A stretch of 64,000 bases of DNA from Methanosalsum zhilinae DSM 4017. GTDB taxonomy: Archaea; Halobacteriota; Methanosarcinia; Methanosarcinales; Methanosarcinaceae. The stretch is from contig NC_015676.1 of NCBI RefSeq assembly GCF_000217995.1, forward strand, positions 1,345,708-1,409,707. Reading direction: 5' to 3'. This document shows, in pieces, positions 9,801-64,000 of this stretch (positions are counted from its first letter, which is position 1; every line of letters begins with the position of its first letter). The position numbers were made by a program, and so were the translations under genes. Under the pieces are notes generated by a model. That model did not search any database, was not told the DNA's origin, and was given only the letters and a program-made list of their open reading frames with translations.

Positions 9801-9993
9801 GGGGCTGTGGCCTAGTCCGGCATGGCGACGGGCTCCAGCGGATAAATGATGAACAACGGGTCTACTGAGGCCTTTCCGACGGGAAAGATCAATGAGGAAC
9901 CGTTGGAGCACTGATATGCTCATGAATTAAAGCTGTCACAGATAGCAATTCGGAGAGACCCGTCGATCGTGAGTTCAAATCTCACCAGCCCCA
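9801..9993 (+). tRNA. tRNA-Trp (anticodon CCA) interrupted by a ~119-nt intron at the canonical 37/38 position
   Basis: The acceptor stem is GGGGCTG/CAGCCCC with discriminator A. The T-arm is GTGAG-TTCAAAT-CTCAC. The anticodon stem is ACGGG/CCCGT with loop CT-CCA-G. The anticodon-stem halves lie about 120 nt apart, which implies a long intron. CCA is not encoded. Confidence 0.85.
9839..9957 (+). ncRNA. Box C/D sRNA embedded in the tRNA-Trp intron
   Basis: The intron carries box C ATGATGA (9846-9852), box D' CTGA (9865-9868), a C'-like ATGAGGA (9892-9898) and box D CTGA (9911-9914). The guide upstream of D is complementary to GCTCCA-CGG of the anticodon loop, placing the fifth nucleotide opposite C34. 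The guide upstream of D' is complementary to AGACCCGT, placing the fifth nucleotide opposite C39. Confidence 0.65.
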
Positions 9994-49293: not shown

Positions 49294-51381
49294 ATGAAAC
49301 GCTCTATCCTGATATATAGAGAAGAAAATATTGAGATCTCAAATGCAGAAATAGAGTTAGTCAGACAAGTCTATCGAAATATTCGAAAGAATAGAAGAGC
49401 TGGGTTGATAATAGATTTTAGTGAAGATAACAATTTGTTGTTAAGGCTGATAGTTTCTGAACTTATGTATAAATATTATGAGTTAAAAACGCCATTTGCA
49501 TTTATTACAGATAGTACAGGAAAGCGATTTGTGAATGAATCCTTAAAAGAACTTAGAACTAAAAGAGATAGTTCTAGTCTTTATAGACTACTAATTCAAA
49601 ATCCTATCAAACAAAACAAAGTGTTCGACATAAACAGAGATACTAAAAATCTAAAAATATTTAACTATTTTATATTTTTTAGAGTTCCTAATATTTTTGA
49701 GTCTCTAAATGAATTTTATGGTCATAAAGTTTTGATTTTAACTAAAAGAGACAAAAATAAAGTTGGTGACAGAATAAAATCCATTGTGTCAGACTTAAAA
49801 CACAGTGGTTGGGCTTACCTGGAAGTAAGTGTTAAAAATAAAAATAAAAGACAGATTGAGAAAGATGATGTTAAAATTAGTTTAATAGATGATCACGATT
49901 TAAGCTCCTTGCTAAAAGAAATACTGGACGCACTTTCGAATTCTAATGGGTCAACTAATGATATAGAGGCACTAATAAATTTCTACTTTACTTTACCAAT
50001 AAAGCTCAAAAGCTATAACGAGTTGCAGTATGAACATACTCATAATAGCAATTTAGAACAATTGCCTAGTGAACAAATAGCAAAAAATAATAAATTGTGT
50101 CCACGAGACTCATTGATGTTTAACCTTCTATTTCAAAAAATGGAAAACCATCTATTAGATACAAATTTAAAATTTAATCATGTTCTACTAAGAGCAAAAG
50201 CTTTAAATGAGCTAGGTAAAACTGTTTCGCTTTTACTTCCCAATAGAAACTATTCAGAAATGTTTAGTGAGGTTATTGCAGATACGGACTATAAAAATAT
50301 AATTGAAGCCGACAATATTTGGTATCCTGAGCTGATATCCCGAGATGTATTGATGGATGAAATCATAATTGATACGATCATGATTCCTTTTGTTCCTTCT
50401 AATACCGTATTAGATGATGTGTTAACCATTGCAGAAGACGTGATTTTTGTACTTTATCCTGAAGAAGTTCTCATTCTGGAACATTTTACTAATATGTCTC
50501 AAGATGATAATATAATGCACGATTCAACAGAGTTCAATTCAAATCTTAAAATTAACCAAAGGGGCTGTAGTTCTACTAAAACTTCTAAATTTACAGATTT
50601 AAAAAAATATATGAATAACAACTTTAGAGATTTTAAAAGGGGTTTTCATTACACTTCATATAGTGGATTTTTGCGAAGTCTCGATGCTGATGACGACATT
50701 GAAGAAGTATCAGACTTGGATGATATGAATAGGTCAATTAATTATAAAATTATTTGTGCTGAAGGAAATATTATAGAATCTTCAAGCTTAGAACATGTTA
50801 TTCTTTTCGAAAAAGGTTTTTATTCCCCAATTTATGCTAGTAAACTAAAGAAGAACCAAGAGTTTATAGTTATTAGTTCAGAGACTAAATTAAAGTATCT
50901 AGAGAGAGAAATTGAAAGTCACCGTAATAATAGACTACTATCAAATATGGAATATGAAAGTTTGATAGGTTATATTGCAGAATGGAAAAGTGCACTTAAA
51001 TCTGTATTAAAAGAATATGAATTAAAGGAGATTTATAGTAAATTAAACCATGATGGTTATAGATATAACTATGTAACTATCAAAAACTGGTTTAAAGGAC
51101 TTGAAAATGACCCTAAAAAATCTGCAATAAACTCAATACTTAATACTAATACTAATATAGGTCCACGAGATGAAGAAACTATTAAAATTTTTGGGGAAAT
51201 TTTTGATTTACCTCAATTGATTCAAAACTATCGGTTTATTAGTGCTTCTATGAAACATTTTAGAACAAACAATCGCATTGCTGGAAGGAGAGCAATGAAA
51301 AATATAGTTATGGATCTCAAACAAGGAAACCTTGAGTTACCAAAACATAAAGTAAAAAAGATAACTTCTAAAGAACAATAA
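49294..51381 (+). CDS. Hypothetical 695-aa protein, divergent from the giant helicase
   Basis: This long, Lys/Asn-rich ORF has no recognisable catalytic motif. Its start is 129 bp from the start of the 2004-aa gene. Confidence 0.4.
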   Translation: MKRSILIYREENIEISNAEIELVRQVYRNIRKNRRAGLIIDFSEDNNLLLRLIVSELMYKYYELKTPFAFITDSTGKRFVNESLKELRTKRDSSSLYRLLIQNPIKQNKVFDINRDTKNLKIFNYFIFFRVPNIFESLNEFYGHKVLILTKRDKNKVGDRIKSIVSDLKHSGWAYLEVSVKNKNKRQIEKDDVKISLIDDHDLSSLLKEILDALSNSNGSTNDIEALINFYFTLPIKLKSYNELQYEHTHNSNLEQLPSEQIAKNNKLCPRDSLMFNLLFQKMENHLLDTNLKFNHVLLRAKALNELGKTVSLLLPNRNYSEMFSEVIADTDYKNIIEADNIWYPELISRDVLMDEIIIDTIMIPFVPSNTVLDDVLTIAEDVIFVLYPEEVLILEHFTNMSQDDNIMHDSTEFNSNLKINQRGCSSTKTSKFTDLKKYMNNNFRDFKRGFHYTSYSGFLRSLDADDDIEEVSDLDDMNRSINYKIICAEGNIIESSSLEHVILFEKGFYSPIYASKLKKNQEFIVISSETKLKYLEREIESHRNNRLLSNMEYESLIGYIAEWKSALKSVLKEYELKEIYSKLNHDGYRYNYVTIKNWFKGLENDPKKSAINSILNTNTNIGPRDEETIKIFGEIFDLPQLIQNYRFISASMKHFRTNNRIAGRRAMKNIVMDLKQGNLELPKHKVKKITSKEQ

Positions 51382-51388
51382 AAAAATA

Positions 51389-52389
51389 GGCTCTGTAGAA
51401 ATCTTATGTAAATAATAATTGTAAATGAGTTATACTTTTCGATATTATGTGTTAAATCTTACATTTACTTCCTTTACCTGGTTTCTGTACTTTCTTGACT
51501 TAATTTCTTCACCACATTTTCTTTTCAGAACGGAGAACATTGTTTCTACCAGGTTTCTCGAATGGTAGAGTTTCTCATCAAACTCTTCAACCATTTTCCT
51601 ACGGTATTTGCCATTTATTTTCTTTCTTTTCCTCTGTCTTACAGGGATAAGAGGACTTGAATTCATGTTCTCTCGTTTGAGAACATGAATTTGTTCAGAG
51701 TCATACCCTTTATCCAGGACATCGTATTCTGAATGACGAAGTCTATGGCATTGCTTCAGCAATGTTTGTGCGTGTTTCGTATCGTGTACAGGTTTACTTG
51801 AGACCTTAAACCCAGTAACAATAAATTTTTCAACATCAATTGCTATACTTGTTTTTAGATATGATCTCCTTTTCTTTCCAGTCCTCATTGAATAATTGTA
51901 ACTACAATGTCCACCCGTAAATCCACTTGAATCAATAGCAGTGAGATATATTCTTTCACCATGATAATAAAAGAGTTTTAGAGTTTGTTTCAATATGCTG
52001 TTAAAATATACTGATGGTATTCTACTCATGAATTTTTGTAATGTTGTAAAATGTGGTACCTGTTTTATTCCAAGTTTATTCTGTACTTTATCCATTAATT
52101 CAATGAGTTCAACGAAGTTTCTATAGTCCTCATTTAAGTATTCTTTTAGTAAAACCAGTGTCATTAACTGGTGCTGAGTATATTTTCACTTAGAATACTT
52201 ACTGCTATACAATGGAAGATGAGATATTCCTGAGACAGCAATGGCTGTATCATAAAGTTTAAGTATTTTCTTGACAAAAATATTCATCCCCCTGTTGTTT
52301 TTGTTTGTTTACCAAAAAAACACAGGGGACTTATCCTTTTTATAACATTAGGTTGAAGTGGTAATAGAAAATAGGATTTCTACATAGCC
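51389..52389. mobile_element. IS5/IS4-family insertion sequence (~1.0 kb) with 15-bp terminal inverted repeats
   Basis: The left end GGCTCTGTAGAAATC (51389-51403) and the right end GATTTCTACATAGCC (52375-52389) match as inverted repeats at 14 of 15 positions. Between them lies a DDE transposase ORF. Confidence 0.6.
51445..52164 (-). CDS. IS4/IS5-family DDE transposase
   Basis: The 239-aa product has DDE_Tnp_1-like motifs (AIDSSGF; DKGYDS; ETMFSVLKRK). Confidence 0.7.
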   Translation of the reverse strand: MTLVLLKEYLNEDYRNFVELIELMDKVQNKLGIKQVPHFTTLQKFMSRIPSVYFNSILKQTLKLFYYHGERIYLTAIDSSGFTGGHCSYNYSMRTGKKRRSYLKTSIAIDVEKFIVTGFKVSSKPVHDTKHAQTLLKQCHRLRHSEYDVLDKGYDSEQIHVLKRENMNSSPLIPVRQRKRKKINGKYRRKMVEEFDEKLYHSRNLVETMFSVLKRKCGEEIKSRKYRNQVKEVNVRFNT

Positions 52390-52568
52390 GACTTTTCATC
52401 CCTTTAAAATATAAATGGAACATATTCTATGGTTCCGGCTTTTCTTTTCAATCAATATCTGGTTTACAATAAACCAACAAAAAATTACTCAGGGTCATAT
52501 TTTGAAGATTAACTTGAGACTTCATATTATCTTAATAATTGTTGTATTAACCCTGTTTTTTGATAACT

Positions 52569-52979
52569 CTAAGAAAGCTTGCTCCTAGCTGCCTTATACT
52601 TCTCTATCCTGAGTTTATCTTCAGGTGTAGGGTCTGGAATCCGAGATAAAACCAGGTTATCTTCAATATCTGCTAGCTTCACCCTACAAGCGATATAATT
52701 TTGCGAAATTCTGTCAATGAACAGGCTATAATCTTCCCCTTCTTTTTTTGTTAGATGAGTAAGCACTTCAATCACTTCTTCTGAAAAGCCTTCATCTTTA
52801 AGTTCTTTAAACGTTATTGATGAATCTTCCACAACATCATGTAACACTGCACATATTCTCTCAATATCTGTATTCATCTTCATCATGATTCTTAGAGGAT
52901 GAAGGATGTAAGGCTCCCCGCCTTTATCTCTCTGCCCATAATGTGCTTTGCAAGCAATTAATATAGCCTTATTCAACAA
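52569..52979 (-). CDS. HD-domain protein resembling the RelA/SpoT (p)ppGpp hydrolase domain (small alarmone hydrolase-like)
   Basis: The N-terminal motif AHYGQRDKGGEPYILHPLRI matches the SpoT-hydrolase A-H-x-G-Q-x-R-K-x-G-x-PY-x-x-HP signature. An HD dyad (LHDVVED) and a downstream KLADIEDN follow. Confidence 0.6.
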   Translation of the reverse strand: MLNKAILIACKAHYGQRDKGGEPYILHPLRIMMKMNTDIERICAVLHDVVEDSSITFKELKDEGFSEEVIEVLTHLTKKEGEDYSLFIDRISQNYIACRVKLADIEDNLVLSRIPDPTPEDKLRIEKYKAARSKLS

Positions 52980-53159
52980 TACAGATTCCTCTTTGTAGTA
53001 AGTCTATTTTGCTTTCATTCTACTTATTATTGCCTTTAGTATTGTAACTCTATAGAAATTGTCATCTGAATAATAGTTGCAAACGAGTTATACTTTTTAG
53101 GTATTTAATGTCTTAGATTTAACTTCCTTTATCTTATTTATAAAAAATCTAATTAATTC

Positions 53160-53912
53160 TCACTTTAATTGCAAAAAAATTTCATCCAGACCATAAGTAA
53201 TTACATTTATTCGGTTTGACTTATTTGAGATGTAATCAACTGATATCATAGATAACTGAAATGGAAAAAGTGCAGGTGAACTTGTTATCATTTTAAAACA
53301 TCCTTTATTTTCTGGTATTGCATACAATACTGACTCTACAAGCAAAACAACAATTTCATCATCGTGTACGTTTAGTTGATTTGCTTTTACATAACATCCT
53401 TTACATTCTGAATCCTTTAAAATACCCCATTCTACGAGAGAACGAATCACATATCTGGCATACCTGCTAATAGTTTGTCTATCACCATATTGCTCTTTGA
53501 GTCTGTTGGTTATCTGATGTAGAGTAATCTGATCTTGAAGGTTCAAAAGTCTCCCCACCTGCAAAGATACGTTATACCAAAAAGGATAAGCTGCACAAAT
53601 CATTGCCCAGTGTATTGCAAGAGATTCAGAAGGATATTTGCGTAGCTGCTCTAAGGCAGAATCCCGTAAACCTAAAAGCTCAGGTTCAGGAGATACCCAG
53701 GTTTTCATTAGATTGGCAACGACAAATTTGCATGTGTTCTTACTTCGTTGATCTTCAGAACCACCGCATCTATAATGCATTAGATACTCATTAAACTCTG
53801 AACGTATTGATTTCTCATCCATTCCTGCAAGAAGCATACTAGCTGTTTTTTCCATCCATTCATAACGAATAACCTGCTTTATTCCAATGGAATCATACCT
53901 TTTACTCATCAA
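53160..53912 (-). CDS. Hypothetical protein, terminal gene of the defence operon (BrxA-like by position only)
   Basis: This 250-aa ORF overlaps the stop of the PglZ gene by 4 nt. It has no motif I can assign. Confidence 0.3.
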   Translation of the reverse strand: MMSKRYDSIGIKQVIRYEWMEKTASMLLAGMDEKSIRSEFNEYLMHYRCGGSEDQRSKNTCKFVVANLMKTWVSPEPELLGLRDSALEQLRKYPSESLAIHWAMICAAYPFWYNVSLQVGRLLNLQDQITLHQITNRLKEQYGDRQTISRYARYVIRSLVEWGILKDSECKGCYVKANQLNVHDDEIVVLLVESVLYAIPENKGCFKMITSSPALFPFQLSMISVDYISNKSNRINVITYGLDEIFLQLK

Positions 53913-55909
53913 CGACTCCTCTTTTCAAATTTTACCAAAGGAACAATTACTTCTTCCATTGAAATTCCACCGTGACCAACTATAGTTTCTCCTTCCTTGA
54001 CAAATGCATCGTCTCCCTCAGTTACCAACGGGAAATAACCAGGTGGTAAGCCTATAGGATTCCATTTTATTGCAAATGGTAATGTTTTGGCAACTGAATC
54101 TCTAAGTTCCAAAGTAGGATAAATCCTTGCTCTCTCGCCACGATTTTCGGCTATAGATCCTTCAAATGAACGTCCTTTTCCATTACATTCTATATTGCCA
54201 TGATCTGATGTTAACCATACTTGATAATTGTTATCTAAGAGGTATTCAATTAGAGAAAAAAGAAAACCTCCTTCGCACCATTGTTTAATCTGATTGTGCA
54301 TTCCAGAAGCACCGAGTTGCATACCATGCATAATCTTGTCGACCTTGTCAACGACCAAACCAATGACCTTTGTTTGGTTTAGATTGAAACTATCATCAAG
54401 AATCTCGCAAACATTACCATCTCCCAAGCTACGCTGATAAGCAATTTTCTGACGTGATACACCATTGTCTTCCCAGAACTGGCGCCACAGGTTTCCTTCA
54501 TTGTTTGTTGTGTTAATTGATTTTGGATAGGAAATAGGTGTTCTTCCCGAGAAAACTGCCTGTCTTGATACGGAAGTCAATGTAGGTATCCAGGCAAAAG
54601 TTGCTGATTCTTTCATAACCAAATTAGGATCTTGTTCATGGAGAACTTTTTTTATAGTGACCCACTGGTCAAGAGATAGACCATCAACAACAACAAGAGC
54701 CAAACTCATGTTTTTTTCAGATTCAAGTTCCCTAACCATTCGGCGAGGAACATGATGAAGCATTGCAGGATTTGTTGGAGGAAGATTAATCAGACCAGCA
54801 TAGCGTTCAAGCATCCAGTTTGTGAACTTATTGTTGACTAAAGTACTGATCTGCTTGAATCGTTCCAATTCATTAACTTGATTGGTTGTGTGAATAAGTG
54901 CTCTTAATTCTGCCCATTTCATTGCGAAGTCGATCCATTCTGAATAAAGTGACTCTGGAACGGGAATTTCATTTTCGATAATCTCAAGAAGACCATTAAT
55001 ACGAATGTTAGGATCATTGTCATTTGTTTCAGATACACCGCTTTTTATCCAGGGATTTGTTTCTATATTTGTGCCAGATTTTTGAACTGGAATGAGCTTG
55101 CCTTCAACAAAAAGATTGTCAATGTAAACACGGATGTCCTCATGATCAAATGGTAATGTGGTTGGTCCTCCATATTTCAGATTGTAAGCTGATGTTTCTT
55201 TAATGATATGGTTTCCGTGAGCCAGCACATCAAGGAATGGGGGCCAACGTTCTTGTAGAAACGCAAAAAAGGCTCCATCATCGGAGACGATAATTTCAAG
55301 TGGCCAATCATTAAAACGACTGTTACCTTTTAAGATTTGAACCAGTCGACCAGACAAGATTGGCGGTAGTTTAAGCTTATTGTAATGAATCCTAAGCAGT
55401 GTACGAAGTAGTTCAACATCGTTGGTGATAAGATATGGTACAATACCAAAAACATATTGGATTACAAAATCCTTGGTGTCATTATTACCTAGTTTACGTG
55501 GAGAATATTTGTTTTGAGCAGCAAATAATTCGTCCAGGAAACTGCTATCAAGTTTCTCAATTATAGAATAACTTAGATTGGGGAAAATATTACCAAGGGT
55601 AAATTTCAATATTCTTCCAGCTTTGAGGAGATCATAAGGCAGGGCATCCCACTGGGAGTTACACACACGAATCACAACTGTCTGTTTGGTCTGTTGTCCC
55701 TGGTCCCATAGAGTTCTGTATCCTGATTCATAGGCATACCTGAATTCAACAGAGTCTTTGAAATCAATAAGATCAAAACCACGGTTTTTGAGTTCAAGCG
55801 AGAGTTTTTCTTCGGTCAGCAGGTCATCAGGATCGATTACAATGATGACTTTGCTTATATTTGGCACAAACTCGTTAAGTATACTATCTCTCCAAGTACA
55901 TGGACTCAT
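53909..55909 (-). CDS. PglZ-domain protein (alkaline-phosphatase superfamily; BREX PglZ-like)
   Basis: The C-terminal domain has LALVVVDGLSLDQW and WLTSDHGN motifs (a PglZ-type TADHG-like metal-binding site). The gene is coupled to the SNF2 helicase gene. Confidence 0.55.
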   Translation of the reverse strand: MSPCTWRDSILNEFVPNISKVIIVIDPDDLLTEEKLSLELKNRGFDLIDFKDSVEFRYAYESGYRTLWDQGQQTKQTVVIRVCNSQWDALPYDLLKAGRILKFTLGNIFPNLSYSIIEKLDSSFLDELFAAQNKYSPRKLGNNDTKDFVIQYVFGIVPYLITNDVELLRTLLRIHYNKLKLPPILSGRLVQILKGNSRFNDWPLEIIVSDDGAFFAFLQERWPPFLDVLAHGNHIIKETSAYNLKYGGPTTLPFDHEDIRVYIDNLFVEGKLIPVQKSGTNIETNPWIKSGVSETNDNDPNIRINGLLEIIENEIPVPESLYSEWIDFAMKWAELRALIHTTNQVNELERFKQISTLVNNKFTNWMLERYAGLINLPPTNPAMLHHVPRRMVRELESEKNMSLALVVVDGLSLDQWVTIKKVLHEQDPNLVMKESATFAWIPTLTSVSRQAVFSGRTPISYPKSINTTNNEGNLWRQFWEDNGVSRQKIAYQRSLGDGNVCEILDDSFNLNQTKVIGLVVDKVDKIMHGMQLGASGMHNQIKQWCEGGFLFSLIEYLLDNNYQVWLTSDHGNIECNGKGRSFEGSIAENRGERARIYPTLELRDSVAKTLPFAIKWNPIGLPPGYFPLVTEGDDAFVKEGETIVGHGGISMEEVIVPLVKFEKRSR

Positions 55910-58836
55910 CAGTCTCTCCTTTGTATTTGCATTAGCAAAAGTGGTTTTATATCTGGTACTGTCTCTTTTGCAATTTCAAGTTCTTTTTTCCATACGTTCT
56001 CTTCGGAAATACATTTATCTAAACGATATTGACGAACCTCGGGGAGACCAAGACGTCCTATGGCTTTTCTCCGTGCTTCAAATGCATGATGACCTCTTAT
56101 TTCTTCATGTTCAATTGCAGAGCTATGTTCTTGCTTAAGGGTATTAAATAATGCCTGCCCAGCAGATTCAGCAGCATTGGTAACTTTATCATATGCATCA
56201 ATGGATGCTTTGTGGTCAAGAGAATGTAAAATCTTTAGCTCTGCTGTCTGCATGATGTCCCATATATGGCGGGCAGTTGGAAGGAATATATTCCCTTCGT
56301 CGGATACAAAGACACTGAGATATCGTCTCCTTATTTGTGGAATAGTCATAGTATGGTTGCTATTGTATGTGCCCGATACTATACGAATCTCGAACAATCC
56401 CCAAAAGCCAGATATCTTGGATGATAATTCATCTATAGATACGCATGGAATTGGCTGCCCGGAAGCAATCATTGGTAGGTTAAGTGCAAGTCCTCTTATC
56501 TTGTTATCTTCCAGATTAAGTAACACGACATCATCTTTAAGTTGCGATCGATGTGAATTGAAGGTGCAATTCATAGGAACTTTACTGTCAGGCCACATAA
56601 GGTCCCATGATTCTCTTTTACGTATTGCATGACCGCCGTGGGATTTAATATAACCTACTGTCATACGTTCGACCCAATAGGGAAGTGGATGTGATCGTAG
56701 ACGATCTGCAGTTTGCAGGTCAGGTTCTTCCGAAATACCAAAGATCGGTGATGATTCACGAATCTCATGGATCTCTTCTCTAATCTTGGATACTGTATTA
56801 TCAACTGAAGCTTCAACATTATCAGGATCAAGAATTGCAGAAGCAAAAATACCTTCGAATAATTCCCCAGCCTGAGCGGAGTCAAGTACATCTCCTGTTT
56901 TGTCGATTCCAAATTCATTAAGGATTATTGAAAGTTTCTGTTCGAGAACTTCTCGGACCCTGAATTCTATAGATTCCTGGAAAAGGAAGTTTATTGCTCT
57001 TACAACTTTGGCCTGACCGATACGATCAACACGACCTATACGTTGTTCCAGTCTCATTGGGTTCCATGGGATATCATAGTTTATGACAACATGACAGAAC
57101 TGAAGGTTCAGGCCTTCACCACCTGCATCAGTAGAAATGAGTACACGTACTTTGTCACAGAAATCATCCTGGGCCTTTTTTCGTTCGTCCATATCCATGA
57201 AGCCATTAAGTGTTACTACAGAAATACCTCGGGCTTCAAGGAATTCTTTAAGCATCTGTTGGGTTGGAACGAATTCGGTGAATATCAGTAATTTGAGGTC
57301 TGCTTCATTCTCTTCTGCCTGGAGCTGATAGATCCATTCTATCAGTGATTCTGCTTTGGCATCAGGTGCTTGCTGCTCACATTGGTAAGCCGTTTCAAGA
57401 AGGTTTTCCACCTGGATCCTTTCGTTCTGCATGGCAGAAATACGGGATTTAAGAAGCTCATCGAGCAGTTCCTGTCCATCCATCTCATAAAGTTCATCAA
57501 CTTCATCACCAGAATCTGTAATCTCTTCCAGACGCTGGGAAGTTCGAATTTCTATGTCTTTGAGAACTTCAAGCCTACGTTCCAGTGTAGTGCGAATGGC
57601 CCTTGTACTTGAAACCACAAGTCTCTGCATGAGTATCATCAGAAAGCCAATGTGCTGCTTCTTTTCCCTTAGTGCCTGATTGTACCCTTCACGGACGTAT
57701 TTTGTTACTTCCTCATAGAGCATTTGCTGTGATCTGTGTCGTTCTTCCCATGTAACAGGTGCCATCTTTGTAACACGTGGTTTGAATAGTGGATTGCCAT
57801 CTCCATCAACTGCTCTACGTTTCTCTGTACGGATCACATAAGCTGCCACTCGTTCACGAGTAACGCTATCCATGTCAGGAAAGGTTTTGTCATCCAACAA
57901 GCTCATCAAACGATGAAATGCATCACTTTTACCCTGATGTGGGGTTGCTGAAAGCAATAGAAGATATGGTGCAGCCTCTGCAAGTCCTCTTCCAAGCTTG
58001 TATCTGGCAACCTGATCCGTACTGCCCCCTAGCCTGTGTGATTCATCAACCACGACCATATCCCACCCGGCAGTGATCAGATCTTCAAATCTGGAGCGGT
58101 TATACTCATCAATACGTTCCTGACTCCATCCCCTGCGTTTATCCATGGGCTTGACAGAGTCAAGGGATACTATCACCTGATCGAACATCCTCCATGGATT
58201 TGCATGCTGCAGTTCATCAGGTTCATCCAGGAACCGGAGCTTAGTACCCTGTGCCCAATAGCGAGAATGGTTACCACTGATTATTCTTTTTATCGTTGCA
58301 AGGTCTTCGCCGAAAACAAGCTGGAAATCCTCGTTGAAGTGCGTATGCATCTCGCTGACCCACTGAGTAGCCAGACCCTTCGGCGCAACAACCAGAATAC
58401 GACGAACCAAACCTCGTAATTTGAGCTCACGCATGATAAGTCCTGCTTCAATTGTCTTCCCCAGACCAACCTCATCAGCTAGCAGATAACGTACCTTATC
58501 TCCAGAAACAGCTCTTGAGAGAACACGTATCTGATGCGGAAGCGGAATGACATTTGATTCCATCGGAGCAAGAAGCACAGGCCCATCCGAATCATGTGAA
58601 CCGCCCTCCAGCACTTCAGCTACCTTTGCTGCTGCAGCAACATACGTAATTCGGTTTGCTTCGATCTCCGGCTGAATCTCTGCAGTCAATGGTCGCAGTG
58701 CTGACTGCGGAACCCTGACCACAGTATCCTGATTTGGAAGCCAGATACGGTAAACTATGTTTCCCCACAGGTTTTGTTCTTCGATTACTTTGCAGGGTGA
58801 GTTGTGGATGGTGGAGTATTGCCATTCTTTAATCAT
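55909..58836 (-). CDS. SNF2-family helicase (COG0553-type; BrxHII/DrmD-like)
   Basis: The product has SNF2_N motifs (LLADEVGLGKTIEAG; VVDESHRLGG), a helicase-C region (LISTDAGGEGLNLQ...QRIGRVDRIGQ) and a C-terminal extension. Confidence 0.8.
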   Translation of the reverse strand: MIKEWQYSTIHNSPCKVIEEQNLWGNIVYRIWLPNQDTVVRVPQSALRPLTAEIQPEIEANRITYVAAAAKVAEVLEGGSHDSDGPVLLAPMESNVIPLPHQIRVLSRAVSGDKVRYLLADEVGLGKTIEAGLIMRELKLRGLVRRILVVAPKGLATQWVSEMHTHFNEDFQLVFGEDLATIKRIISGNHSRYWAQGTKLRFLDEPDELQHANPWRMFDQVIVSLDSVKPMDKRRGWSQERIDEYNRSRFEDLITAGWDMVVVDESHRLGGSTDQVARYKLGRGLAEAAPYLLLLSATPHQGKSDAFHRLMSLLDDKTFPDMDSVTRERVAAYVIRTEKRRAVDGDGNPLFKPRVTKMAPVTWEERHRSQQMLYEEVTKYVREGYNQALREKKQHIGFLMILMQRLVVSSTRAIRTTLERRLEVLKDIEIRTSQRLEEITDSGDEVDELYEMDGQELLDELLKSRISAMQNERIQVENLLETAYQCEQQAPDAKAESLIEWIYQLQAEENEADLKLLIFTEFVPTQQMLKEFLEARGISVVTLNGFMDMDERKKAQDDFCDKVRVLISTDAGGEGLNLQFCHVVINYDIPWNPMRLEQRIGRVDRIGQAKVVRAINFLFQESIEFRVREVLEQKLSIILNEFGIDKTGDVLDSAQAGELFEGIFASAILDPDNVEASVDNTVSKIREEIHEIRESSPIFGISEEPDLQTADRLRSHPLPYWVERMTVGYIKSHGGHAIRKRESWDLMWPDSKVPMNCTFNSHRSQLKDDVVLLNLEDNKIRGLALNLPMIASGQPIPCVSIDELSSKISGFWGLFEIRIVSGTYNSNHTMTIPQIRRRYLSVFVSDEGNIFLPTARHIWDIMQTAELKILHSLDHKASIDAYDKVTNAAESAGQALFNTLKQEHSSAIEHEEIRGHHAFEARRKAIGRLGLPEVRQYRLDKCISEENVWKKELEIAKETVPDIKPLLLMQIQRRD

Positions 58837-60688
58837 TTAGCAACCCCATCTCCTTTAAAAAACGAGAAGGTTGCTTATGCCATCCAAAATATTCGTTTGC
58901 ATAACTCAAATACAGAGATTTTGATGCACGAGTAATTGCTACAAAACAGTTTCTTCTCTCTTCTTCTATTGATTTATTTCCACTTCTAATTGCAAAATAA
59001 GTTGGGAACTGCTCTTCAGCTAATCCTATAATAAAAACATGATCGAACTCCATTCCTTTTGCAGAGTGAACTGTTTGTAATCGGACGCAATCTTTTCCAA
59101 TTGACTTCAACTTGGGCGTTAAATCCATTTCTTGGAGAAATACGTGGAGTCCAACATTTCCTTCATAAGTATCCTCAATGTCCTGTGCAATTCTCGTCCA
59201 ATTTTCTTTATCGTCTTTGTAATCAGGAAATAAATCATCTTTTTCATCGTCAGTATTCAAGTAATCGAAATGATTAATGTATATCTCAATAAATTTTTGA
59301 AATTGGATTGTATCACAAAGATAACTGATTCCGGCATTACAAACTGGATTCAATATTTCACTTTGAGAAGCAGTATCAAAAAAAGCACGAAGCAAAGAAC
59401 TACCTTCAACATGTGCTTTTGCAGAGATGTCTTCAGCTGATAGTACTAAACCGTTTATGTCAGTTGCTGATGCACAAAGCTTGTTGAGAACACTACGAGA
59501 GTTAGCTGCATTGGCCAATTTAAGGCAAAAATACATTGTCAGTAGAATAGGACTTGAAAAATCTTGATTCTTGCTGACGATTTCTGCATTTATACTATGT
59601 TCATTTAAGTACTTATTTGCAGCAGTAAGTAGTTTATTGCTTCTTGCTATCAATAAACATTTATCTCTACTTTTTAGAGGAATTACGTTAATCTCATCAA
59701 CTAAACCTGAAAGTTCATGGTCAAAATTTTCATATGATGTTAATTTAACTGTACCACTTTCATCACTAAACGGAATTCCAGGTTTTTTTGTATGGATTCT
59801 ATAGGAATTATGTTCAATGAGCTTATTTGCTATTTCTACGATTTCCTTTTGGCAACGATAATTATATGGAAGTTGCAGGACTTCTATATTGTAATCGCTT
59901 TTAAGAGATTCCAATCTTTTTGGATCAGCTCCATTCCACTGGAAGATAATCTGGTCTTCATCTGCGACAATAAAAAGATTTGCATTTTCGGTGGGAGCTA
60001 ACAATTTGAGTATTAAATATTGAGCTAGATTTGTATCTTGGAATTCATCTACACAGATATACTTGTACACTGTTCTTAGTTGTCGAGCAATGCGTGGTTT
60101 CGTTTCAAGAAGTTGTCTTGTGAAGTAGAGCATAGACCCAAAATCTAGTTGATTTTCCTTTGAAAGTGCTTGAATGTATTGATTAAATATTGTTTGTAAA
60201 TCGTAACACTCAGTTTGATTTTCAGGAGTGAAATACTTTGGTAGTTCCTCAACAGATATCCCGTGAGTAAACATGGTATCTATTCTGCTTAATATATCTT
60301 CAGGATTATCAACATCAAGTTCCTTAAGGATGGCAATTCGATCCTTTTCATCAGTTATCACTGAAAAGTCCGGCTTAAGGTTGAGATGACTCCCATGTTG
60401 ACGCAATAAATCAGTACAAAATGCATGAAAGGTACGCAGCTGAACTCTATTATCCATATTCCCAAGCAGCATATTTATCCGGTCTTTCATTTCCTTGGCT
60501 GCTTTCACAGTGAATGTTAGACCAAGGATACGGAAATTTTCATCGGGACTGTTTTTTATAATGTTTGCGATTCTCATCGTCAAAACAGCAGTTTTACCAG
60601 ATCCCGGTCCGGCAAGTACGAGAAGGGATTTCTCTCCCCATTCAACTGCTTGGCGTTGACTTTCATTTAGCTGAAAAACTGATATCAT
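58829..60688 (-). CDS. UvrD/PcrA/Rep-like SF1 helicase (GajB-like)
   Basis: Motif I reads LNESQRQAV...LVLAGPGSGKT, followed by UvrD-type Q-motif and helicase motifs. The start overlaps the upstream OLD-family gene by 4 nt. Confidence 0.7.
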   Translation of the reverse strand: MISVFQLNESQRQAVEWGEKSLLVLAGPGSGKTAVLTMRIANIIKNSPDENFRILGLTFTVKAAKEMKDRINMLLGNMDNRVQLRTFHAFCTDLLRQHGSHLNLKPDFSVITDEKDRIAILKELDVDNPEDILSRIDTMFTHGISVEELPKYFTPENQTECYDLQTIFNQYIQALSKENQLDFGSMLYFTRQLLETKPRIARQLRTVYKYICVDEFQDTNLAQYLILKLLAPTENANLFIVADEDQIIFQWNGADPKRLESLKSDYNIEVLQLPYNYRCQKEIVEIANKLIEHNSYRIHTKKPGIPFSDESGTVKLTSYENFDHELSGLVDEINVIPLKSRDKCLLIARSNKLLTAANKYLNEHSINAEIVSKNQDFSSPILLTMYFCLKLANAANSRSVLNKLCASATDINGLVLSAEDISAKAHVEGSSLLRAFFDTASQSEILNPVCNAGISYLCDTIQFQKFIEIYINHFDYLNTDDEKDDLFPDYKDDKENWTRIAQDIEDTYEGNVGLHVFLQEMDLTPKLKSIGKDCVRLQTVHSAKGMEFDHVFIIGLAEEQFPTYFAIRSGNKSIEEERRNCFVAITRASKSLYLSYANEYFGWHKQPSRFLKEMGLLND

Positions 60689-62517
60689 TGGGCACCTCCA
60701 GAAATACCATTGACTTTTTCAAGAATCTGTTTTATTTCTTCTGGGACACCATCTGCTCCTCTATCTTTAATTAACATAATTGCATTAAGTGAAGCAGCAG
60801 GCTTTGAAAAGTGTCTTTTGAGGCAAGCATATACCTGATTCCAATATTCAGGAGTTTCCTCTTCTGCTGTAATTTCAGGATTAGATCTGTCTTCTAGTTT
60901 TCTGGCTACATTCAAAGCTTGACCTGGTTTCTCGGGAAAAGTTTCTTTTATTTCTTCTAATACTTGTTCCCAAGTAGCAGTTGGATAAGTAGTAGTATTA
61001 GTACTTATTCCATCTAAATAAGGATCTCCGTAACCTGCAACACAAAGAAGAACATCCATGTTTGACTCAGAAAGTTTTGTAATATATGTAGACTCGTCTC
61101 TTCCATTCAACAAATTCTTTGCACTTCTAATATACTTATCTCCGGCTTGATCATTATCTGCTAACAAATGCCAATCAATACCAAGGGAATCTGCCACTTT
61201 GATAAATAAACCAGGACCACCTGCTTGACTATATTCGACAATTCGCAGACCACATTGATGTATATCAATTTCTAATATTTGAGCACATTCGGACACTACA
61301 GAAACGTCAGTCTCACCCTCAACAAGTAACCATTTTTTAGCAAATAGTAATTCTCCACGATTTCTTCTAACTTGGTGATTAAATTTCCTCAACTCTTCAG
61401 GAGTCAAGCAATCCTTTTGAATTATATTGCATTCGCATACATTTGACATTCTATTCATTCTTCTAAGATTTTCAACAGGCACCTCCGACAGAATGTCACC
61501 TGAATGAGTTGCAATAATCTTTTGCCCTGGCAAATTACCTAAAATAGGCCAAATTGCACGGATTGCATTGGGGTGCAAGTGTGCTTCTGGTTCTTCAATC
61601 GCAATTATTGGCTCTGCTAAACGATTTACATCGACTTTTATCCGGGTTTTTAAATATGCACTAAAAAGAAGAAGCACGCAAAGACTCTGAGTACCTTCTC
61701 CATGGTTATAGATAGGAACTTTTGTATTAGTGACGGTAGGAATGTTTACATCTGTGTATCGTATTGTTTTATAAAAATCAGCTGGTTTAGGATCTATGCT
61801 AACATTATTAGCATCTCCTACAGAAATAAGAGTTGAAAGCTGCTTTACTTCGGTAACAACGTCCTGAAATGACAAGTGAGAACCAACAATTTTTTTATTT
61901 ACTTCTTCTAGTTCAGATTCTAATTCGATTCTGGTATCATCATTTAGGCTTTTACTTTTTAAAAAAGCTGACCAAAATGTAGCTTGGCTACGAAATTCTT
62001 CTTTTGCATCTCTAAGTGCAGAAAGATAATAAAAAGGACGTAGTTTTCTTATTTCTTTAAGAAAAGACTGCTTACCTACCATTTCATTACCAGCATCGTC
62101 TAAAAAGCAATAACTTTGTTTTAATTCACCATCTTCTTCATCAAACCAACCACTTATACGCAATTTAATCTTTGAGTAATCATCACCAACAATTACCTCG
62201 TTTAATGATTGTACGATTTTATCGTTCCATTGATGTTCTTCTGTTTCCTCAAATGTAAATGTGAGATTTATTGGTAAAAACTGCTCTTTCTTCTTTATTT
62301 CATTGTCACGGTAAAAATCATATTCTGAAAAATTAAAAGTTCGATCAGACTTTATTAAATCCATACCTATGCGTAATGCCTCTAGTACAGAAGTTTTTCC
62401 GCTGTTATTTTCCCCAATCAGAACGGTAATGTCATGATCAAATTCAATCTCTAATGAACTAACACCACGAAAATTTTCAATCTGGACTTTTGTTAGGAAC
62501 ATCTCATTCCCCTCCAA
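60685..62517 (-). CDS. OLD-family ATPase-TOPRIM nuclease (GajA-like)
   Basis: The N-terminal ABC-type ATPase reads FRGVSSLEIEF...VLIGENNSGKTSVLEAL. The C-terminal TOPRIM reads LLVEGETD. The 610-aa size and the adjacent UvrD-like helicase are typical of Gabija. Confidence 0.75.
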   Translation of the reverse strand: MEGNEMFLTKVQIENFRGVSSLEIEFDHDITVLIGENNSGKTSVLEALRIGMDLIKSDRTFNFSEYDFYRDNEIKKKEQFLPINLTFTFEETEEHQWNDKIVQSLNEVIVGDDYSKIKLRISGWFDEEDGELKQSYCFLDDAGNEMVGKQSFLKEIRKLRPFYYLSALRDAKEEFRSQATFWSAFLKSKSLNDDTRIELESELEEVNKKIVGSHLSFQDVVTEVKQLSTLISVGDANNVSIDPKPADFYKTIRYTDVNIPTVTNTKVPIYNHGEGTQSLCVLLLFSAYLKTRIKVDVNRLAEPIIAIEEPEAHLHPNAIRAIWPILGNLPGQKIIATHSGDILSEVPVENLRRMNRMSNVCECNIIQKDCLTPEELRKFNHQVRRNRGELLFAKKWLLVEGETDVSVVSECAQILEIDIHQCGLRIVEYSQAGGPGLFIKVADSLGIDWHLLADNDQAGDKYIRSAKNLLNGRDESTYITKLSESNMDVLLCVAGYGDPYLDGISTNTTTYPTATWEQVLEEIKETFPEKPGQALNVARKLEDRSNPEITAEEETPEYWNQVYACLKRHFSKPAASLNAIMLIKDRGADGVPEEIKQILEKVNGISGGAQ

Positions 62518-63979
62518 CCCTTGTCACAGCCTGATCATACCACATCAGCAACTTTGGATCCTCTTCCAGAACCTTGTTCGGAATCAGATCAGCCACCTTA
62601 ATTATCGTAGAATAATCCCTCTCCTGCCATGCCTTCTTAAAACCAGCCTGTACAGCCTCCATCCTGAATACTTTGAGCTTCTTAGTAGACTGCCTGTACT
62701 CCTCGAACTCTTTCAGCAGTGACTTCTCACGCAGTTTCTCCAGGTCCCCTGCCTTGTTGGGATCTGGTACATACCATCTATCCTTAGCCTTAGCCACCAA
62801 TCCCGGATCATTCTTCTGCAGGTTACGCATCTCCGGCCAATTCGTAGAAAGATAGCCATGTATCTGGCTTGGCACGTCACCAATACCATTGTAGCTGAGG
62901 AAGTTCTGGTTCAGCAGTTCCCTAAGGTCCAGTTGCTCTTCGTTCTTGCTCCAGCCACCAAGCTCCTGCATGAACTGCGGATTAATATCCTGGAATGTCT
63001 GTGGTTTTACCTTGAGAAGCTGACGTAACCACTGAATTGCAGAAGCCTCGTCAGACACGAAAAGTTTTGTTTGGATGAAGTGTCCGGATGTCAGTTTCTT
63101 ACGATCATACTCTGCAGCCTGCTCTGGTAAGAAGTACATACCATCACGCTCAATGAACCGCTGCCCAAGTCCTATCTGAAAATCCTGACTAGAAATTGGT
63201 ACGGGATATCCTTTGCGGACGTAGTAGGCTACCATCTGATCGAAAAGAATACGCGAATCACGTTCGGGAATTAATTGCATTAAAGCTCCCTGGTATTTGG
63301 TGACTGGAAGATATTCCAAATGAGTACGGATAAAGTCCCATACACCGTCTTCAGTTTCTGCTTCATTCTGGAAGCGTTGCTCGAAGCCGCCATTGGGTTT
63401 GTAAGCAGAGATAACAAGATCTTGTTTAACGGCTGTTGGTGTAGTAACCGCTTTAAAACTTCTCTGTTGTTTATCTAAAGAGGAAACGTTTGCAGCAATG
63501 AATCCAGCTTCTAATAATGCTGTTTGAATACTATTCCAAACAGAAGCATTTGTATTAGAGAATTCAACTGTCATCCAGCGTCCAGGTTTAAGTGCCTTAT
63601 ATTTTTCCCTGAAACATTCCGTCATCAGATGACGATAATCATCTAAGCTCTTGCCTTGAGATTTGTTTTCTATAGCTTCAACTTCATTTTTTGTTTTTAA
63701 TCTTAGCCACTCTTCCCAAAGAGAACTCAACTCAGAATAATTTAGATTAGAACCAAATGGAGGATCTGTAAAAACATAATCAACTTGTCCACAGAAGGAA
63801 TCGGTACTTGATTTTGTACTTATCAACGTAGATAATTCAACATCTTTAAAAGCTAAACACAGTTTCTTCAGTTTATTGTAATAAGCAACAAATACATTAG
63901 ATTCTGAAATTTGTGATCCAATATAAAAAGTCCCACTCAAAGGATTGTAAGGGAATGAATACTCCAGGTCTATAACGGT
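62504..63979 (-). CDS. N6-adenine DNA methyltransferase, C-terminal portion (HsdM/gamma-class-like motif IV DPPFG); the N-terminal motifs are not in this frame
   Basis: Motif IV VDYVFTDPPFGSN is followed by LKPGRWMTVEFSN (motif V/VI-like), then a long C-terminal region. The reading frame is closed by an in-frame TAA at 63980-63982 and contains no ATG upstream of the motif. The adjacent minus-strand frame stays open to the window edge. Confidence 0.55.
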   Translation of the reverse strand, partial: TVIDLEYSFPYNPLSGTFYIGSQISESNVFVAYYNKLKKLCLAFKDVELSTLISTKSSTDSFCGQVDYVFTDPPFGSNLNYSELSSLWEEWLRLKTKNEVEAIENKSQGKSLDDYRHLMTECFREKYKALKPGRWMTVEFSNTNASVWNSIQTALLEAGFIAANVSSLDKQQRSFKAVTTPTAVKQDLVISAYKPNGGFEQRFQNEAETEDGVWDFIRTHLEYLPVTKYQGALMQLIPERDSRILFDQMVAYYVRKGYPVPISSQDFQIGLGQRFIERDGMYFLPEQAAEYDRKKLTSGHFIQTKLFVSDEASAIQWLRQLLKVKPQTFQDINPQFMQELGGWSKNEEQLDLRELLNQNFLSYNGIGDVPSQIHGYLSTNWPEMRNLQKNDPGLVAKAKDRWYVPDPNKAGDLEKLREKSLLKEFEEYRQSTKKLKVFRMEAVQAGFKKAWQERDYSTIIKVADLIPNKVLEEDPKLLMWYDQAVTRVGGE

Positions 63980-64000
63980 TTAACTTACTTATATTAATTA

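What the first reader, a model, noticed from the sequence alone, without database searches (positions are those of the whole stretch)
58829..62517. Gabija-like pair (OLD-family ATPase-TOPRIM plus UvrD-like helicase) nested inside a BREX-like operon, with overlapping start and stop codons
GajA-like 60685-62517 carries ABC-ATPase and TOPRIM (EGETD) domains. GajB-like 58829-60688 is a UvrD/PcrA-type helicase. The two genes overlap by 4 nt, the classic Gabija organisation. The pair is itself overlapped upstream by a methyltransferase (14 nt) and downstream by a SNF2 helicase (8 nt). One defence system is therefore embedded in, and apparently co-translated with, another. Gabija has mostly been characterised in bacteria, so an archaeal instance nested in BREX-like context is notable.
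Basis: partly seen in the sequence, partly recalled or inferred. Interest (0 to 1): 0.75.

Follow-up and report, generated by a model that had tools for sequence, protein, structure and literature searches.

The report
Gabija cassette inside archaeal BREX operon
A two-gene Gabija-type antiviral module (nuclease plus helicase) sits in a known cargo slot of a type 3 BREX antiviral operon in a Methanolobus-like archaeon; it is real, but it is one more example of an already described pattern.

Summary
On the minus strand the genes run pglXI, gajA (60685-62502), gajB (58829-60688), brxHII, pglZ, brxA. Both genes match PADLOC Gabija models almost end to end (about 910 bits each). ATPase, TOPRIM and helicase motifs are intact, and the predicted GajA fold is closest to solved B. 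cereus GajA. The host operon is true BREX type 3.

Two corrections:
- The 14-nt overlap with the methyltransferase comes from using the longest ORF. The conserved ATG start lies 1 nt after the pglXI stop.
- pglXI is broken by a 1-nt frameshift near 63960.

In 24 other BREX-3 loci, the pglXI-brxHII junction is empty (8 loci) or holds other defence cargo (HEC-03, IetAS, PDC-S68, Ppl-like, Schlafen-type). The same GajAB clade also occurs alone between housekeeping genes. Cassette and backbone identities are decoupled: 87% GajAB versus 53-60% BREX in one pair, and 90% BrxHII with different cargo in another. GajAB is therefore an exchangeable embedded cassette, not a core BREX part.

Embedded Gabija in BREX, OLD-type nucleases in BREX and archaeal Gabija are all published. 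It is a new member of a known kind, of modest interest.

The parts
62504..64000 (-). pglXI, the BREX type 3 N6-adenine methyltransferase; 3' part only. The reading frame is broken by a 1-nt insertion near 63960, and the gene runs off the window end.
   Evidence: ORF 62504-63940 matches PADLOC PglXI model positions 437-918 of 919 (E = 1e-238). The FTDPPFG motif is present. Upstream of about 63960 a different frame reads INISKLNRYRPGV, matching LINLSRLNRYRPGV of the Sulfurovum PglXI (L020). Removing one base restores VSFPYNPLSGT.
60685..62502 (-). gajA: OLD-family ABC ATPase plus TOPRIM nuclease, 605 aa from ATG 62502. The longest ORF would start at TTG 62517.
   Evidence: PADLOC GajA PDLC00094, 911 bits. 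Pfam DUF2813, AAA_15 and OLD-like_TOPRIM. Invariant Walker A (G35 K36 T37), Walker B region (E303 E304), H-loop (H333), TOPRIM E395 and D449/D451. The AlphaFold model's best PDB matches are B. cereus GajA (8U7I_A and 8SM3_A, E about 1e-19).
58829..60688 (-). gajB: UvrD/PcrA/Rep-type SF1 helicase, 619 aa. Its start overlaps the gajA stop (ATGA).
   Evidence: PADLOC GajB PDLC00114, 908 bits. Pfam UvrD-helicase plus UvrD_C. PDB sequence matches: PcrA, UvrD and Rep at 199-217 bits, B. cereus GajB at 55 bits. Read directly from the sequence: Q motif LNESQ, AGPGSGKT, VDEFQDTN, NYR, TVHSAKGMEFD and VAITRA.
55909..58836 (-). brxHII: SNF2-type helicase of BREX type 3, 975 aa. Its start overlaps the gajB stop by 8 nt.
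   Evidence: PADLOC model PDLC02500 (BrxHI|BrxHII), 1591 bits, against 333 bits for the best DrmD model. Pfam SNF2-rel_dom plus Helicase_C. The NCBIfam DrmD hit is below its cutoff (368 versus 610).
53909..55909 (-). pglZ: BREX type 3 PglZ (alkaline-phosphatase superfamily), 666 aa.
   Evidence: PADLOC PglZ PDLC02558, 1079 bits. NCBIfam BREX_PglZ_3, 916 bits against a cutoff of 250.
53160..53912 (-). brxA, the last gene of the operon: 250 aa from TTG 53912, or 249 aa from ATG 53909 as called on the independent assembly.
   Evidence: PADLOC BrxA PDLC02444, E = 3e-119. Gene call on L001.

Best explanation
gajA-gajB is a Gabija-type (Class 2 OLD nuclease plus UvrD-like helicase) antiviral cassette. 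It sits in the pglXI-brxHII junction of a BREX type 3 operon in a Methanolobus-like archaeon.

Shown here:
- The junction is a cargo hotspot. In different genomes it is empty or holds one of several alternative defence modules.
- GajAB is one exchangeable cargo. It also survives on its own outside BREX.
- It has been swapped between divergent BREX-3 backbones.

Inferred:
- The cassette is transcribed with the BREX genes and translationally coupled to them, given a 1-nt gap, a 4-nt overlap and an 8-nt overlap.
- By analogy with B. cereus Gabija, GajA and GajB assemble into a complex.
- In that complex the TOPRIM nuclease of GajA is held in check by nucleotide binding to its ABC ATPase domain. 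It cuts DNA once infection perturbs the cell.
- GajB then acts on the resulting DNA ends as an NTPase or helicase, giving an abortive, second-line response. This backs up BREX when a virus escapes or inhibits it.

In this particular genome the BREX methyltransferase gene is frameshifted. If the frameshift is real, the Gabija layer may be the only working defence in the operon.

The composite was most likely acquired by horizontal transfer from bacteria.
For: Identity:
- PADLOC GajA and GajB models score about 910 bits each, nearly full length.
- Pfam finds OLD-like_TOPRIM and UvrD domains.
- The catalytic motifs are invariant across 18 homologues.
- The closest solved folds are B. cereus GajA structures.

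Context:
- PglXI, BrxHII, PglZ and BrxA match BREX type 3 models.
- The closest relatives show the full order brxF-brxC-pglXI-gajA-gajB-brxHII-pglZ-brxA.

Hotspot, from 24 BREX-3 loci in metagenomes:
- 8 have pglXI and brxHII 26-58 nt apart.
- L042 and L054 carry HEC-03. L051 carries an 81%-identical homologue of the L042 HEC-03B ATPase.
- L041 carries an NsnB/HEC-03B-like ATPase.
- L044 and L045 (identical cargo) carry IetA-IetS. L046 carries homologues at 58-78% identity.
- L047 carries PDC-S68, L049 a Ppl-like protein and L059 a Schlafen/AlbA_2 protein.

Autonomy:
- Intact GajAB at 50-59% identity lies between Memo, argininosuccinate synthase, ATP synthase, Maf and tRNA synthetase genes, with no BREX gene within 10 kb.

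Exchange:
- Pelodictyon versus Desulfocarbo loci: GajA 87% and GajB 87%, but BrxHII 60%, PglZ 53% and PglXI 55%.
- Pelodictyon versus L041: BrxHII 90% and PglZ 87%, but different cargo.

Decay around the cassette:
- L022 keeps intact gajAB between a 98-codon pglXI remnant and a roughly 124-codon brxHII remnant.
- The solo locus L023 still has a 35-codon pglXI remnant upstream of gajA.

Mechanistic background (nucleotide-inhibited nicking, 4:4 complex, GajB NTPase, abortive infection) comes from the review PMC10568477. The backup logic (Ocr inhibits BREX but may trigger embedded Gabija) comes from bioRxiv 10.1101/2024.01.29.577857.
Against: - The pair is distant from the only well-studied Gabija. 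phmmer finds no B. cereus GajA at E < 1e-3, and structure-based identity is about 18% with TM about 0.5. GajB is far closer to PcrA/UvrD (217 bits) than to B. cereus GajB (55 bits).
- Other Class 2 OLD enzymes (BpOLD, XccOLD) are reported to be non-specific nucleases insensitive to ATP (PMC10568477). Nucleotide sensing may therefore not apply here.
- About half of the species-level genomes carrying this clade have it at exactly this BREX-3 junction, across many phyla. The BrxHII tree groups most GajAB-bearing loci together. Some functional coupling to BREX is therefore not excluded.
- No expression, complex-formation or phenotype data exist for this locus.
- The frameshift may be a sequencing error.
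Confidence: 0.75

Rival explanations
1. The pair is a functionally integrated component of a BREX type 3 subtype. For example, it could be the nuclease/helicase effector arm, or a dedicated guard that reads BREX status, rather than an independent system that happens to be parked there.
For: - The same position and the same 1-nt pglXI-gajA spacing occur in archaea, Gammaproteobacteria, Chlorobi, Campylobacterota, Desulfobacterota, Lentisphaerae, Clostridia and CPR Gracilibacteria.
- Gene overlaps are tight.
- Most GajAB-bearing loci fall in one BrxHII clade, and the trees are partly congruent.
- A Mantel test gives r = 0.69, p = 0.002 when all 10 loci are used.
- PMC12839542 argues that OLD-type nucleases are backup effectors recruited by BREX.
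Against: - Intact solo copies lie among housekeeping genes.
- The same junction is empty or holds unrelated cargo in 24 other BREX-3 loci.
- Backbones that are 90-97% identical carry different cargo, and an 87%-identical cassette sits in backbones only 53-60% identical.
- The Mantel correlation disappears (r = -0.08, n = 7) once the four close archaeal loci are reduced to one.
- No BREX gene is systematically missing or altered when GajAB is present.
Confidence: 0.12
2. The whole operon, cassette included, is a decaying and non-functional remnant in this genome, because the BREX methyltransferase gene is frameshifted.
For: - pglXI carries a 1-nt insertion near 63960.
- An IS transposase gene lies about 1 kb downstream of brxA.
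- Related loci show BREX decay (L022, L023, L014).
Against: - gajA, gajB, brxHII, pglZ and brxA are all full-length ORFs. They align end to end with homologues and keep every invariant catalytic residue.
- In the decayed loci L022 and L023 it is gajAB that remains intact.
- The frameshift is not confirmed by an independent assembly and could be an error.
Confidence: 0.08
3. The pair is a housekeeping DNA-repair nuclease/helicase (a UvrD/PcrA paralogue with a partner), unrelated to defence.
For: GajB scores higher against PcrA, UvrD and Rep than against B. cereus GajB, both in the PDB and in NCBIfam.
Against: - All NCBIfam PcrA, UvrD and Rep hits are far below their curated cutoffs (for example 314 bits against 911).
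- The best models by far are the PADLOC GajA and GajB models.
- The genes are embedded in a BREX operon inside a defence island that also holds a DruE-like gene.
- Distribution across species is patchy, and in this survey the only archaeal relatives were Methanolobus or close relatives.
Confidence: 0.02

Closest known systems
Gabija (GajA/GajB; Class 2 OLD nuclease plus UvrD-like helicase), archetype Bacillus cereus VD045
   Same: - Two-gene architecture with gajA upstream and overlapping gajB.
- GajA is an OLD-type ABC ATPase fused to a TOPRIM nuclease with the catalytic Glu and DxD.
- GajB is an SF1 UvrD-family protein.
- Both match PADLOC Gabija models at about 910 bits.
- B. cereus GajA structures are the best PDB matches to the predicted GajA fold.
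   Different: - It is very divergent from the archetype: about 18% structure-based identity for GajA, and no phmmer hit.
- GajB is larger (619 aa against about 494) and closer to genuine PcrA/UvrD. It keeps all helicase motifs, so it may be an active helicase, unlike B. cereus GajB (PMC10568477).
- The host is an archaeon.
- About half of the sampled members of this clade are embedded in BREX type 3.
BREX type 3 (brxF-brxC-pglXI-brxHII-pglZ-brxA)
   Same: pglXI, brxHII, pglZ and brxA are present in canonical order with strong family matches. The closest relatives also carry brxF and brxC upstream.
   Different: - A 3.67-kb two-gene cassette separates pglXI from brxHII.
- pglXI is frameshifted here.
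- brxF and brxC lie beyond the window end and could not be seen.
Defence systems embedded in BREX, DISARM, Hma or type I RM ('guilt by embedding', Payne et al., bioRxiv 10.1101/2024.01.29.577857), and the OLD/TOPRIM backup effectors in BREX loci (PMC12839542)
   Same: - Same phenomenon: a same-strand defence cassette nested between core genes of a modification-based system.
- The alternative cargos found here at the same junction (HEC-03, PDC-S68) are candidates that Payne et al. defined by embedding.
   Different: Within the text I could read, those papers do not single out the pglXI-brxHII junction of type 3, this GajAB clade, or its exchange between backbones.
PARIS (AriA ABC ATPase plus AriB TOPRIM), often embedded in BREX type 1
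   Same: It has an OLD-like ABC ATPase and a TOPRIM nuclease, is embedded in BREX, and has a proposed role as a trap for anti-restriction proteins.
   Different: - Here the ATPase and TOPRIM are fused in one protein and paired with a helicase.
- The AriA model scores only 112 bits against 911 bits for GajA.

Membership tests
Gabija | GajA has an N-terminal OLD-type ABC ATPase domain with intact nucleotide-binding motifs | tested here: met
   Pfam AAA_15, AAA_21 and DUF2813. Walker A GENNSGKT (K36), signature GEGTQS, Walker B IAIEEPE and H-loop ATHS are invariant in 18 homologues.
Gabija | GajA has a C-terminal TOPRIM nuclease domain with the catalytic Glu and DxD acidic motif | tested here: met
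   Pfam OLD-like_TOPRIM, residues 391-456, E = 1.6e-12. E395 (LLVEGETD) and D449/D451 are invariant and align to the corresponding TsOLD motifs.
Gabija | Match to curated GajA and GajB profile models | tested here: met
   PADLOC PDLC00094 (GajA) E = 7e-275 and PDLC00114 (GajB) E = 6e-274, both nearly full length. DefenseFinder models were not available.
Gabija | GajA fold resembles solved GajA | tested here: met
   Foldseek top hits are 8U7I_A, 8SM3_A and 8X5I (E = 6e-20 to 1e-17, probability 1.0). However, TM is about 0.5, model pLDDT is 72.5, and the insert at residues 169-277 is poorly modelled.
Gabija | GajB is a UvrD/PcrA/Rep-like SF1 protein encoded immediately downstream on the same strand | tested here: met
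   Pfam UvrD-helicase (E = 8e-66) plus UvrD_C. ATGA overlap with gajA.
Gabija | The pair is self-contained (occurs without other system genes) | tested here: met
   Intact homologous pairs in L015, L023, L025, L026 and L029 have no BREX gene within 10 kb. In the four loci whose neighbours were scanned (L015, L023, L025, L026), most of the flanking genes that matched a Pfam family are housekeeping genes.
Gabija | GajA4:GajB4 supramolecular complex | not testable with these tools
   Only single-chain prediction is available.
Gabija | Antiviral (abortive infection) phenotype and nucleotide-regulated DNA cleavage | not testable with these tools
   Requires experiments. Known for B. cereus Gabija only (PMC10568477).
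BREX type 3 | Type 3 PglZ | tested here: met
   NCBIfam BREX_PglZ_3, 916 bits against a cutoff of 250. PADLOC PglZ, 1079 bits.
BREX type 3 | BrxHII SNF2-type helicase | tested here: met
   PADLOC PDLC02500, 1591 bits, full length.
BREX type 3 | Intact PglXI adenine methyltransferase | tested here: not met
   A homologue is present (PADLOC PglXI E = 1e-238 for the C-terminal half). The frame is broken by a 1-nt insertion near 63960 and the 5' part lies beyond the window. A sequencing error is not excluded.
BREX type 3 | BrxA | tested here: met
   PADLOC BrxA PDLC02444, E = 3e-119.
BREX type 3 | BrxC ATPase and BrxF | not testable with these tools
   They would lie beyond coordinate 64000. They are present upstream of pglXI in the closest relatives L002 and L004.
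PARIS (AriA/AriB) | Separate AriA ATPase and AriB TOPRIM proteins | tested here: not met
   ATPase and TOPRIM are fused in one 605-aa protein. The AriA model scores 112 bits against 911 bits for GajA.
DISARM (for the SNF2 helicase) | DrmD helicase above the curated cutoff, with DrmA/B/C partners | tested here: not met
   NCBIfam DISARM_DrmD scores 368 bits against a cutoff of 610. The neighbours are PglZ and BrxA, not DrmA/B/C.

The most novel reading that the evidence does not exclude
This GajAB clade may be a cassette specialised for BREX type 3. It could be functionally wired to its host, for example firing when PglXI or BrxHII is blocked by a viral inhibitor, or using BREX methylation to spare host DNA. 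On this reading the BREX-3 plus Gabija composite has spread as a unit across bacterial phyla and into methanogenic archaea. The pglXI 3' end and brxHII 5' end would serve as recombination anchors for cassette exchange. Remnants of both flank the cassette in L014, L022 and L023.
Probability: 0.2. Interest if true: 0.6.

Novelty: new member of a known kind. Interest (0 to 1): 0.3.

Why it matters
The locus is a clean, well-delimited example of layered immunity in an archaeon: an abortive-infection-type nuclease/helicase cassette riding inside a methylation-based system.

The comparative data add one useful detail. The pglXI-brxHII junction of BREX type 3 behaves as a swap site for defence cargo (Gabija, HEC-03, Iet, PDC-S68, Ppl-like, Schlafen-type). 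The embedded cassette can also outlive its host system.

This makes the junction a practical place to mine for new defence genes. It also gives a testable case for whether embedded systems merely share regulation with their host or guard it.

It does not change current understanding, because the general phenomenon is published.

Tried and rejected
- phmmer of GajA against PDB sequences did not retrieve B. cereus GajA at all. The relationship only appeared through fold comparison. I had also recalled TsOLD (6P74) as Class 2, but the review PMC10568477 lists it as Class 1.
- The exact-sequence look-up of P0014 failed. The look-up of the window's own GajB found only a 10.4-kb Logan contig that starts 106 nt upstream of gajA. 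It therefore cannot confirm or refute the pglXI frameshift or show brxC and brxF.
- The genome-contig scan did not return the source genome itself (best 95%, M. bombayensis).
- The Mantel test of co-divergence is inconclusive. The signal (r = 0.69) is carried by the four close archaeal loci and vanishes with one archaeal representative (n = 7). The per-gene identity table was more informative.
- tblastn of GajA against PLSDB plasmids gave only distant OLD proteins below 31% identity, so there is no evidence for plasmid carriage.
- I first read the pglXI N-terminal loss as an IS insertion. I rejected this because the last 60 nt of the window are homologous to pglXI of L020 in another frame, and no repeat of that segment exists in the window.
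- ARAGORN found no tRNA although Rfam did, presumably because of the intron.
- The promoter and terminator scan was not run, because the tool does not cover archaeal promoters.
Full report
**What is in the sequence**

Between 53160 and 64000 the minus strand carries six tightly packed ORFs. Profile searches identify them as follows.

| Coordinates | Gene | Main evidence |
|---|---|---|
| 62504-63940 | pglXI, C-terminal half | PADLOC PglXI model positions 437-918 of 919, E = 1e-238 |
| 60685-62517 (longest ORF) | gajA | PADLOC PDLC00094, E = 7e-275; Pfam DUF2813, AAA_15, AAA_21, OLD-like_TOPRIM |
| 58829-60688 | gajB | PADLOC PDLC00114, E = 6e-274; Pfam UvrD-helicase plus UvrD_C |
| 55909-58836 | brxHII | PADLOC 1591 bits |
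| 53909-55909 | pglZ | PADLOC 1079 bits; NCBIfam BREX_PglZ_3, 916 bits against a cutoff of 250 |
| 53160-53912 | brxA | PADLOC E = 3e-119 |

The host operon is therefore a genuine BREX type 3, and the pair matches Gabija models at both positions.

The gajA stop and gajB start overlap as ATGA. The gajB stop and brxHII start overlap as ATGATTAA.

The window is archaeal. It holds a tRNA with a C/D-box sR3 intron. The nearest GajA (95% identity) is from Methanolobus bombayensis, family Methanosarcinaceae.

**Two corrections to the observation**

First, the 14-nt overlap with the methyltransferase depends on the TTG at 62517.
- The ATG at 62502 aligns with an invariant M1 in 17 homologues.
- An independent assembly calls the gene from this ATG, giving 605 aa.
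- GGAGG lies just upstream of it.
- It lies 1 nt after the pglXI stop, the same spacing as in related loci.

Second, pglXI is disrupted.
- The last 60 nt of the window are homologous to the Sulfurovum pglXI (L020), but in another frame.
- A single extra base near 63960 separates ...NRYRPGV from SFPYNPLSGT....
- Relatives have an intact PglXI of 931-937 aa.
- I could not verify the extra base independently, because the only other assembly starts 106 nt upstream of gajA.

**Integrity of the two proteins**

In GajA these motifs are invariant across 18 sequences that are 55-95% identical:
- Walker A (GENNSGKT, K36)
- signature (GEGTQS)
- Walker B region (IAIEEPE)
- H-loop (ATHS)
- TOPRIM Glu (LLVEGETD, E395)
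- DxD (D449, D451)

GajB shows the Q motif, AGPGSGKT, VDEFQDTN, NYR, TVHSAKGMEFD and VAITRA. These were read directly from the translation.

An AlphaFold model of GajA (mean pLDDT 72.5) has B. cereus GajA structures as its best PDB matches (8U7I_A, 8SM3_A, 8X5I; E = 6e-20 to 1e-17). TsOLD follows.

By sequence alone the pair is far from the archetype.
- phmmer finds no B. cereus GajA at E < 1e-3.
- GajB is closer to PcrA and UvrD (about 215 bits) than to B. cereus GajB (55 bits).

This is a divergent Gabija clade that PADLOC already models.

**Is the pair an insertion or an integral BREX part?**

I tested this from both directions.

Starting from GajA:
- Exact-protein look-ups and a species-level genome scan were mapped with tblastn.
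- The order pglXI-gajA-gajB-brxHII-pglZ-brxA appears in two Methanolobus genomes, Methylococcaceae, a CPR Gracilibacteria MAG, Pelodictyon, Sulfurovum and Desulfocarbo. A Lentisphaerae MAG shows the same order as far as brxHII, where its contig ends. GajA identity to the window in these bacterial loci is 55-57%.
- Pairs at 50-59% identity in Thiosymbion, Arenicellales, a Gammaproteobacteria MAG and Poriferihabitaceae have no BREX gene within 10 kb. In the Thiosymbion, Arenicellales and Gammaproteobacteria loci whose neighbours I scanned, the flanking genes include Memo, CNNM, argininosuccinate synthase, ATP synthase subunit a, Maf and a tRNA synthetase.

Starting from BrxHII:
- A metagenome scan gave 24 BREX-3 loci, none with GajAB.
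- Eight have pglXI and brxHII 26-58 nt apart.
- The others carry 1.5-3.6 kb of other cargo at the same junction. PADLOC and Pfam scans identify HEC-03 A+B (L042, L054), an NsnB/HEC-03B-like ATPase (L041), IetA-IetS (L044 and the identical L045), PDC-S68 (L047), a Ppl-like protein (L049) and a Schlafen/AlbA_2 protein (L059).
- L051 and L046 carry close homologues of the HEC-03 and Iet proteins (58-81% identity). The cargo of L061 and L063 was not identified.

**Evidence for cassette exchange**

- The Pelodictyon and Desulfocarbo loci share 87% identical GajA and GajB, but only 60% BrxHII, 53% PglZ and 55% PglXI.
- Pelodictyon and L041 share 90% BrxHII and 87% PglZ but carry different cargo.
- L041 and L042 have 97% identical BrxHII and different cargo.
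- The BrxHII tree puts most GajAB-bearing loci in one clade, with L041 and L042 nested inside and Desulfocarbo elsewhere.
- A Mantel test is significant only because of the four close archaeal loci (r = 0.69, against r = -0.08 with one representative).
- Remnants mark the process:
  - L022 keeps intact gajAB between the last 98 codons of pglXI and about 124 codons of brxHII.
  - The solo locus L023 retains 35 codons of pglXI upstream of gajA.
  - L014 has a brxHII stub and a second pglXI stub after gajB.

Together these results show a cargo hotspot with an exchangeable, self-sufficient Gabija cassette.

**Likely mechanism**

Shown here: gene content, motif integrity, operon packing, autonomy and mobility of the cassette.

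Inferred from B. cereus Gabija (review PMC10568477):
- GajA and GajB form a complex.
- The GajA TOPRIM nuclease is restrained by nucleotide binding to the ATPase domain and is released during infection.
- GajB acts on DNA ends as an NTPase, giving abortive infection.

Caveats:
- Other Class 2 OLD enzymes are ATP-insensitive non-specific nucleases (same review).
- This GajB looks like a competent helicase.

The benefit of embedding is probably co-expression and backup. A viral inhibitor such as Ocr can block BREX yet trigger embedded PARIS or Gabija, as argued in bioRxiv 10.1101/2024.01.29.577857. If the pglXI frameshift is real, the BREX layer here is probably disabled and Gabija may be the only active layer.

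**Comparison with what is known, and novelty**

- Payne et al. (bioRxiv 10.1101/2024.01.29.577857) describe frequent same-strand embedding of defence genes in BREX and explicitly mention embedded Gabija.
- PMC12839542 reports OLD-ABC/TOPRIM modules linked to BREX and BREX-related loci in at least 1242 taxa, and type 3 BREX in 919 taxa including 28 archaea.
- PMC12881386 reports Gabija in nine archaeal phyla.

The locus is thus a new member of a known kind. The modest additions are the identification of the pglXI-brxHII junction as a multi-cargo swap site, the evidence for cassette exchange and BREX decay around the cassette, and the frameshifted pglXI.

**Verdict**

Interest is 0.3.

Noticed in passing
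window 63941-64000 (about 63960): pglXI, the BREX methyltransferase gene, carries a 1-nt insertion that splits it into two frames. Relatives have an intact 931-937 aa gene. It could be a real inactivating mutation or a sequencing error, and it is not in a homopolymer run.
   Followed up: partly
window 43151-49165 (-): A 2004-aa helicase matches PADLOC DruE models (Druantia; 1724 bits). It has no obvious Druantia partner gene next to it. The flanking 695-aa ORF (49294-51381, +) has no Pfam or PADLOC match.
   Followed up: partly
window 39854-42898 (+): A 1014-aa ResIII/Helicase_C protein has its best PADLOC match to PbeA (200 bits). Its N-terminal roughly 470 residues are unassigned. It is another probable defence gene in the same island.
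   Followed up: no
window 51399-53097: An IS-type DDE transposase (51445-52164, -) and a small HD-domain ORF (52569-52979, -) lie between brxA and the DruE-like gene. They are bracketed by an imperfect 41-nt direct repeat (51399-51439 and 53057-53097, 80% identity).
   Followed up: no
window 9801-9993 (+): Rfam finds a tRNA gene with an intron that matches the C/D-box sRNA sR3 (9842-9916), an archaeal hallmark. ARAGORN missed the tRNA.
   Followed up: no
L041-L063 (BREX type 3 loci from metagenomes), pglXI-brxHII junction: The junction is empty in 8 loci. Elsewhere it carries HEC-03, an NsnB-like ATPase plus a 349-aa unknown protein, IetA-IetS, PDC-S68, a Ppl-like protein or a Schlafen/AlbA_2 protein. 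This makes it a multi-cargo hotspot worth mining.
   Followed up: partly
L014:13691-17900; L022:9705-13940; L023:9889-13830: Short remnants of the pglXI 3' end and the brxHII 5' end flank gajAB in decayed or solo loci. L014 has a second pglXI stub after gajB, followed by a DrmD-like fragment in place of brxHII. This hints at cassette exchange by recombination in these flanks.
   Followed up: partly
L025:13876-15150: In a solo Arenicellales locus, a Schlafen/AlbA_2 plus HATPase_c_4 gene lies directly downstream of gajB. The same domain family occurs as BREX-3 junction cargo in L059.
   Followed up: no
L009:9536-11320; L004:6080-7189; L010:5464-7260 and 13663-13941: GajAB-bearing BREX-3 loci carry further embedded genes at other junctions:
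- L009: a GmrSD_N protein between brxHII and pglZ.
- L004: a DUF1016/YhcG protein between brxC and pglXI.
- L010: a 598-aa unknown protein between brxC and pglXI, and a 92-aa ORF after gajB.
   Followed up: no
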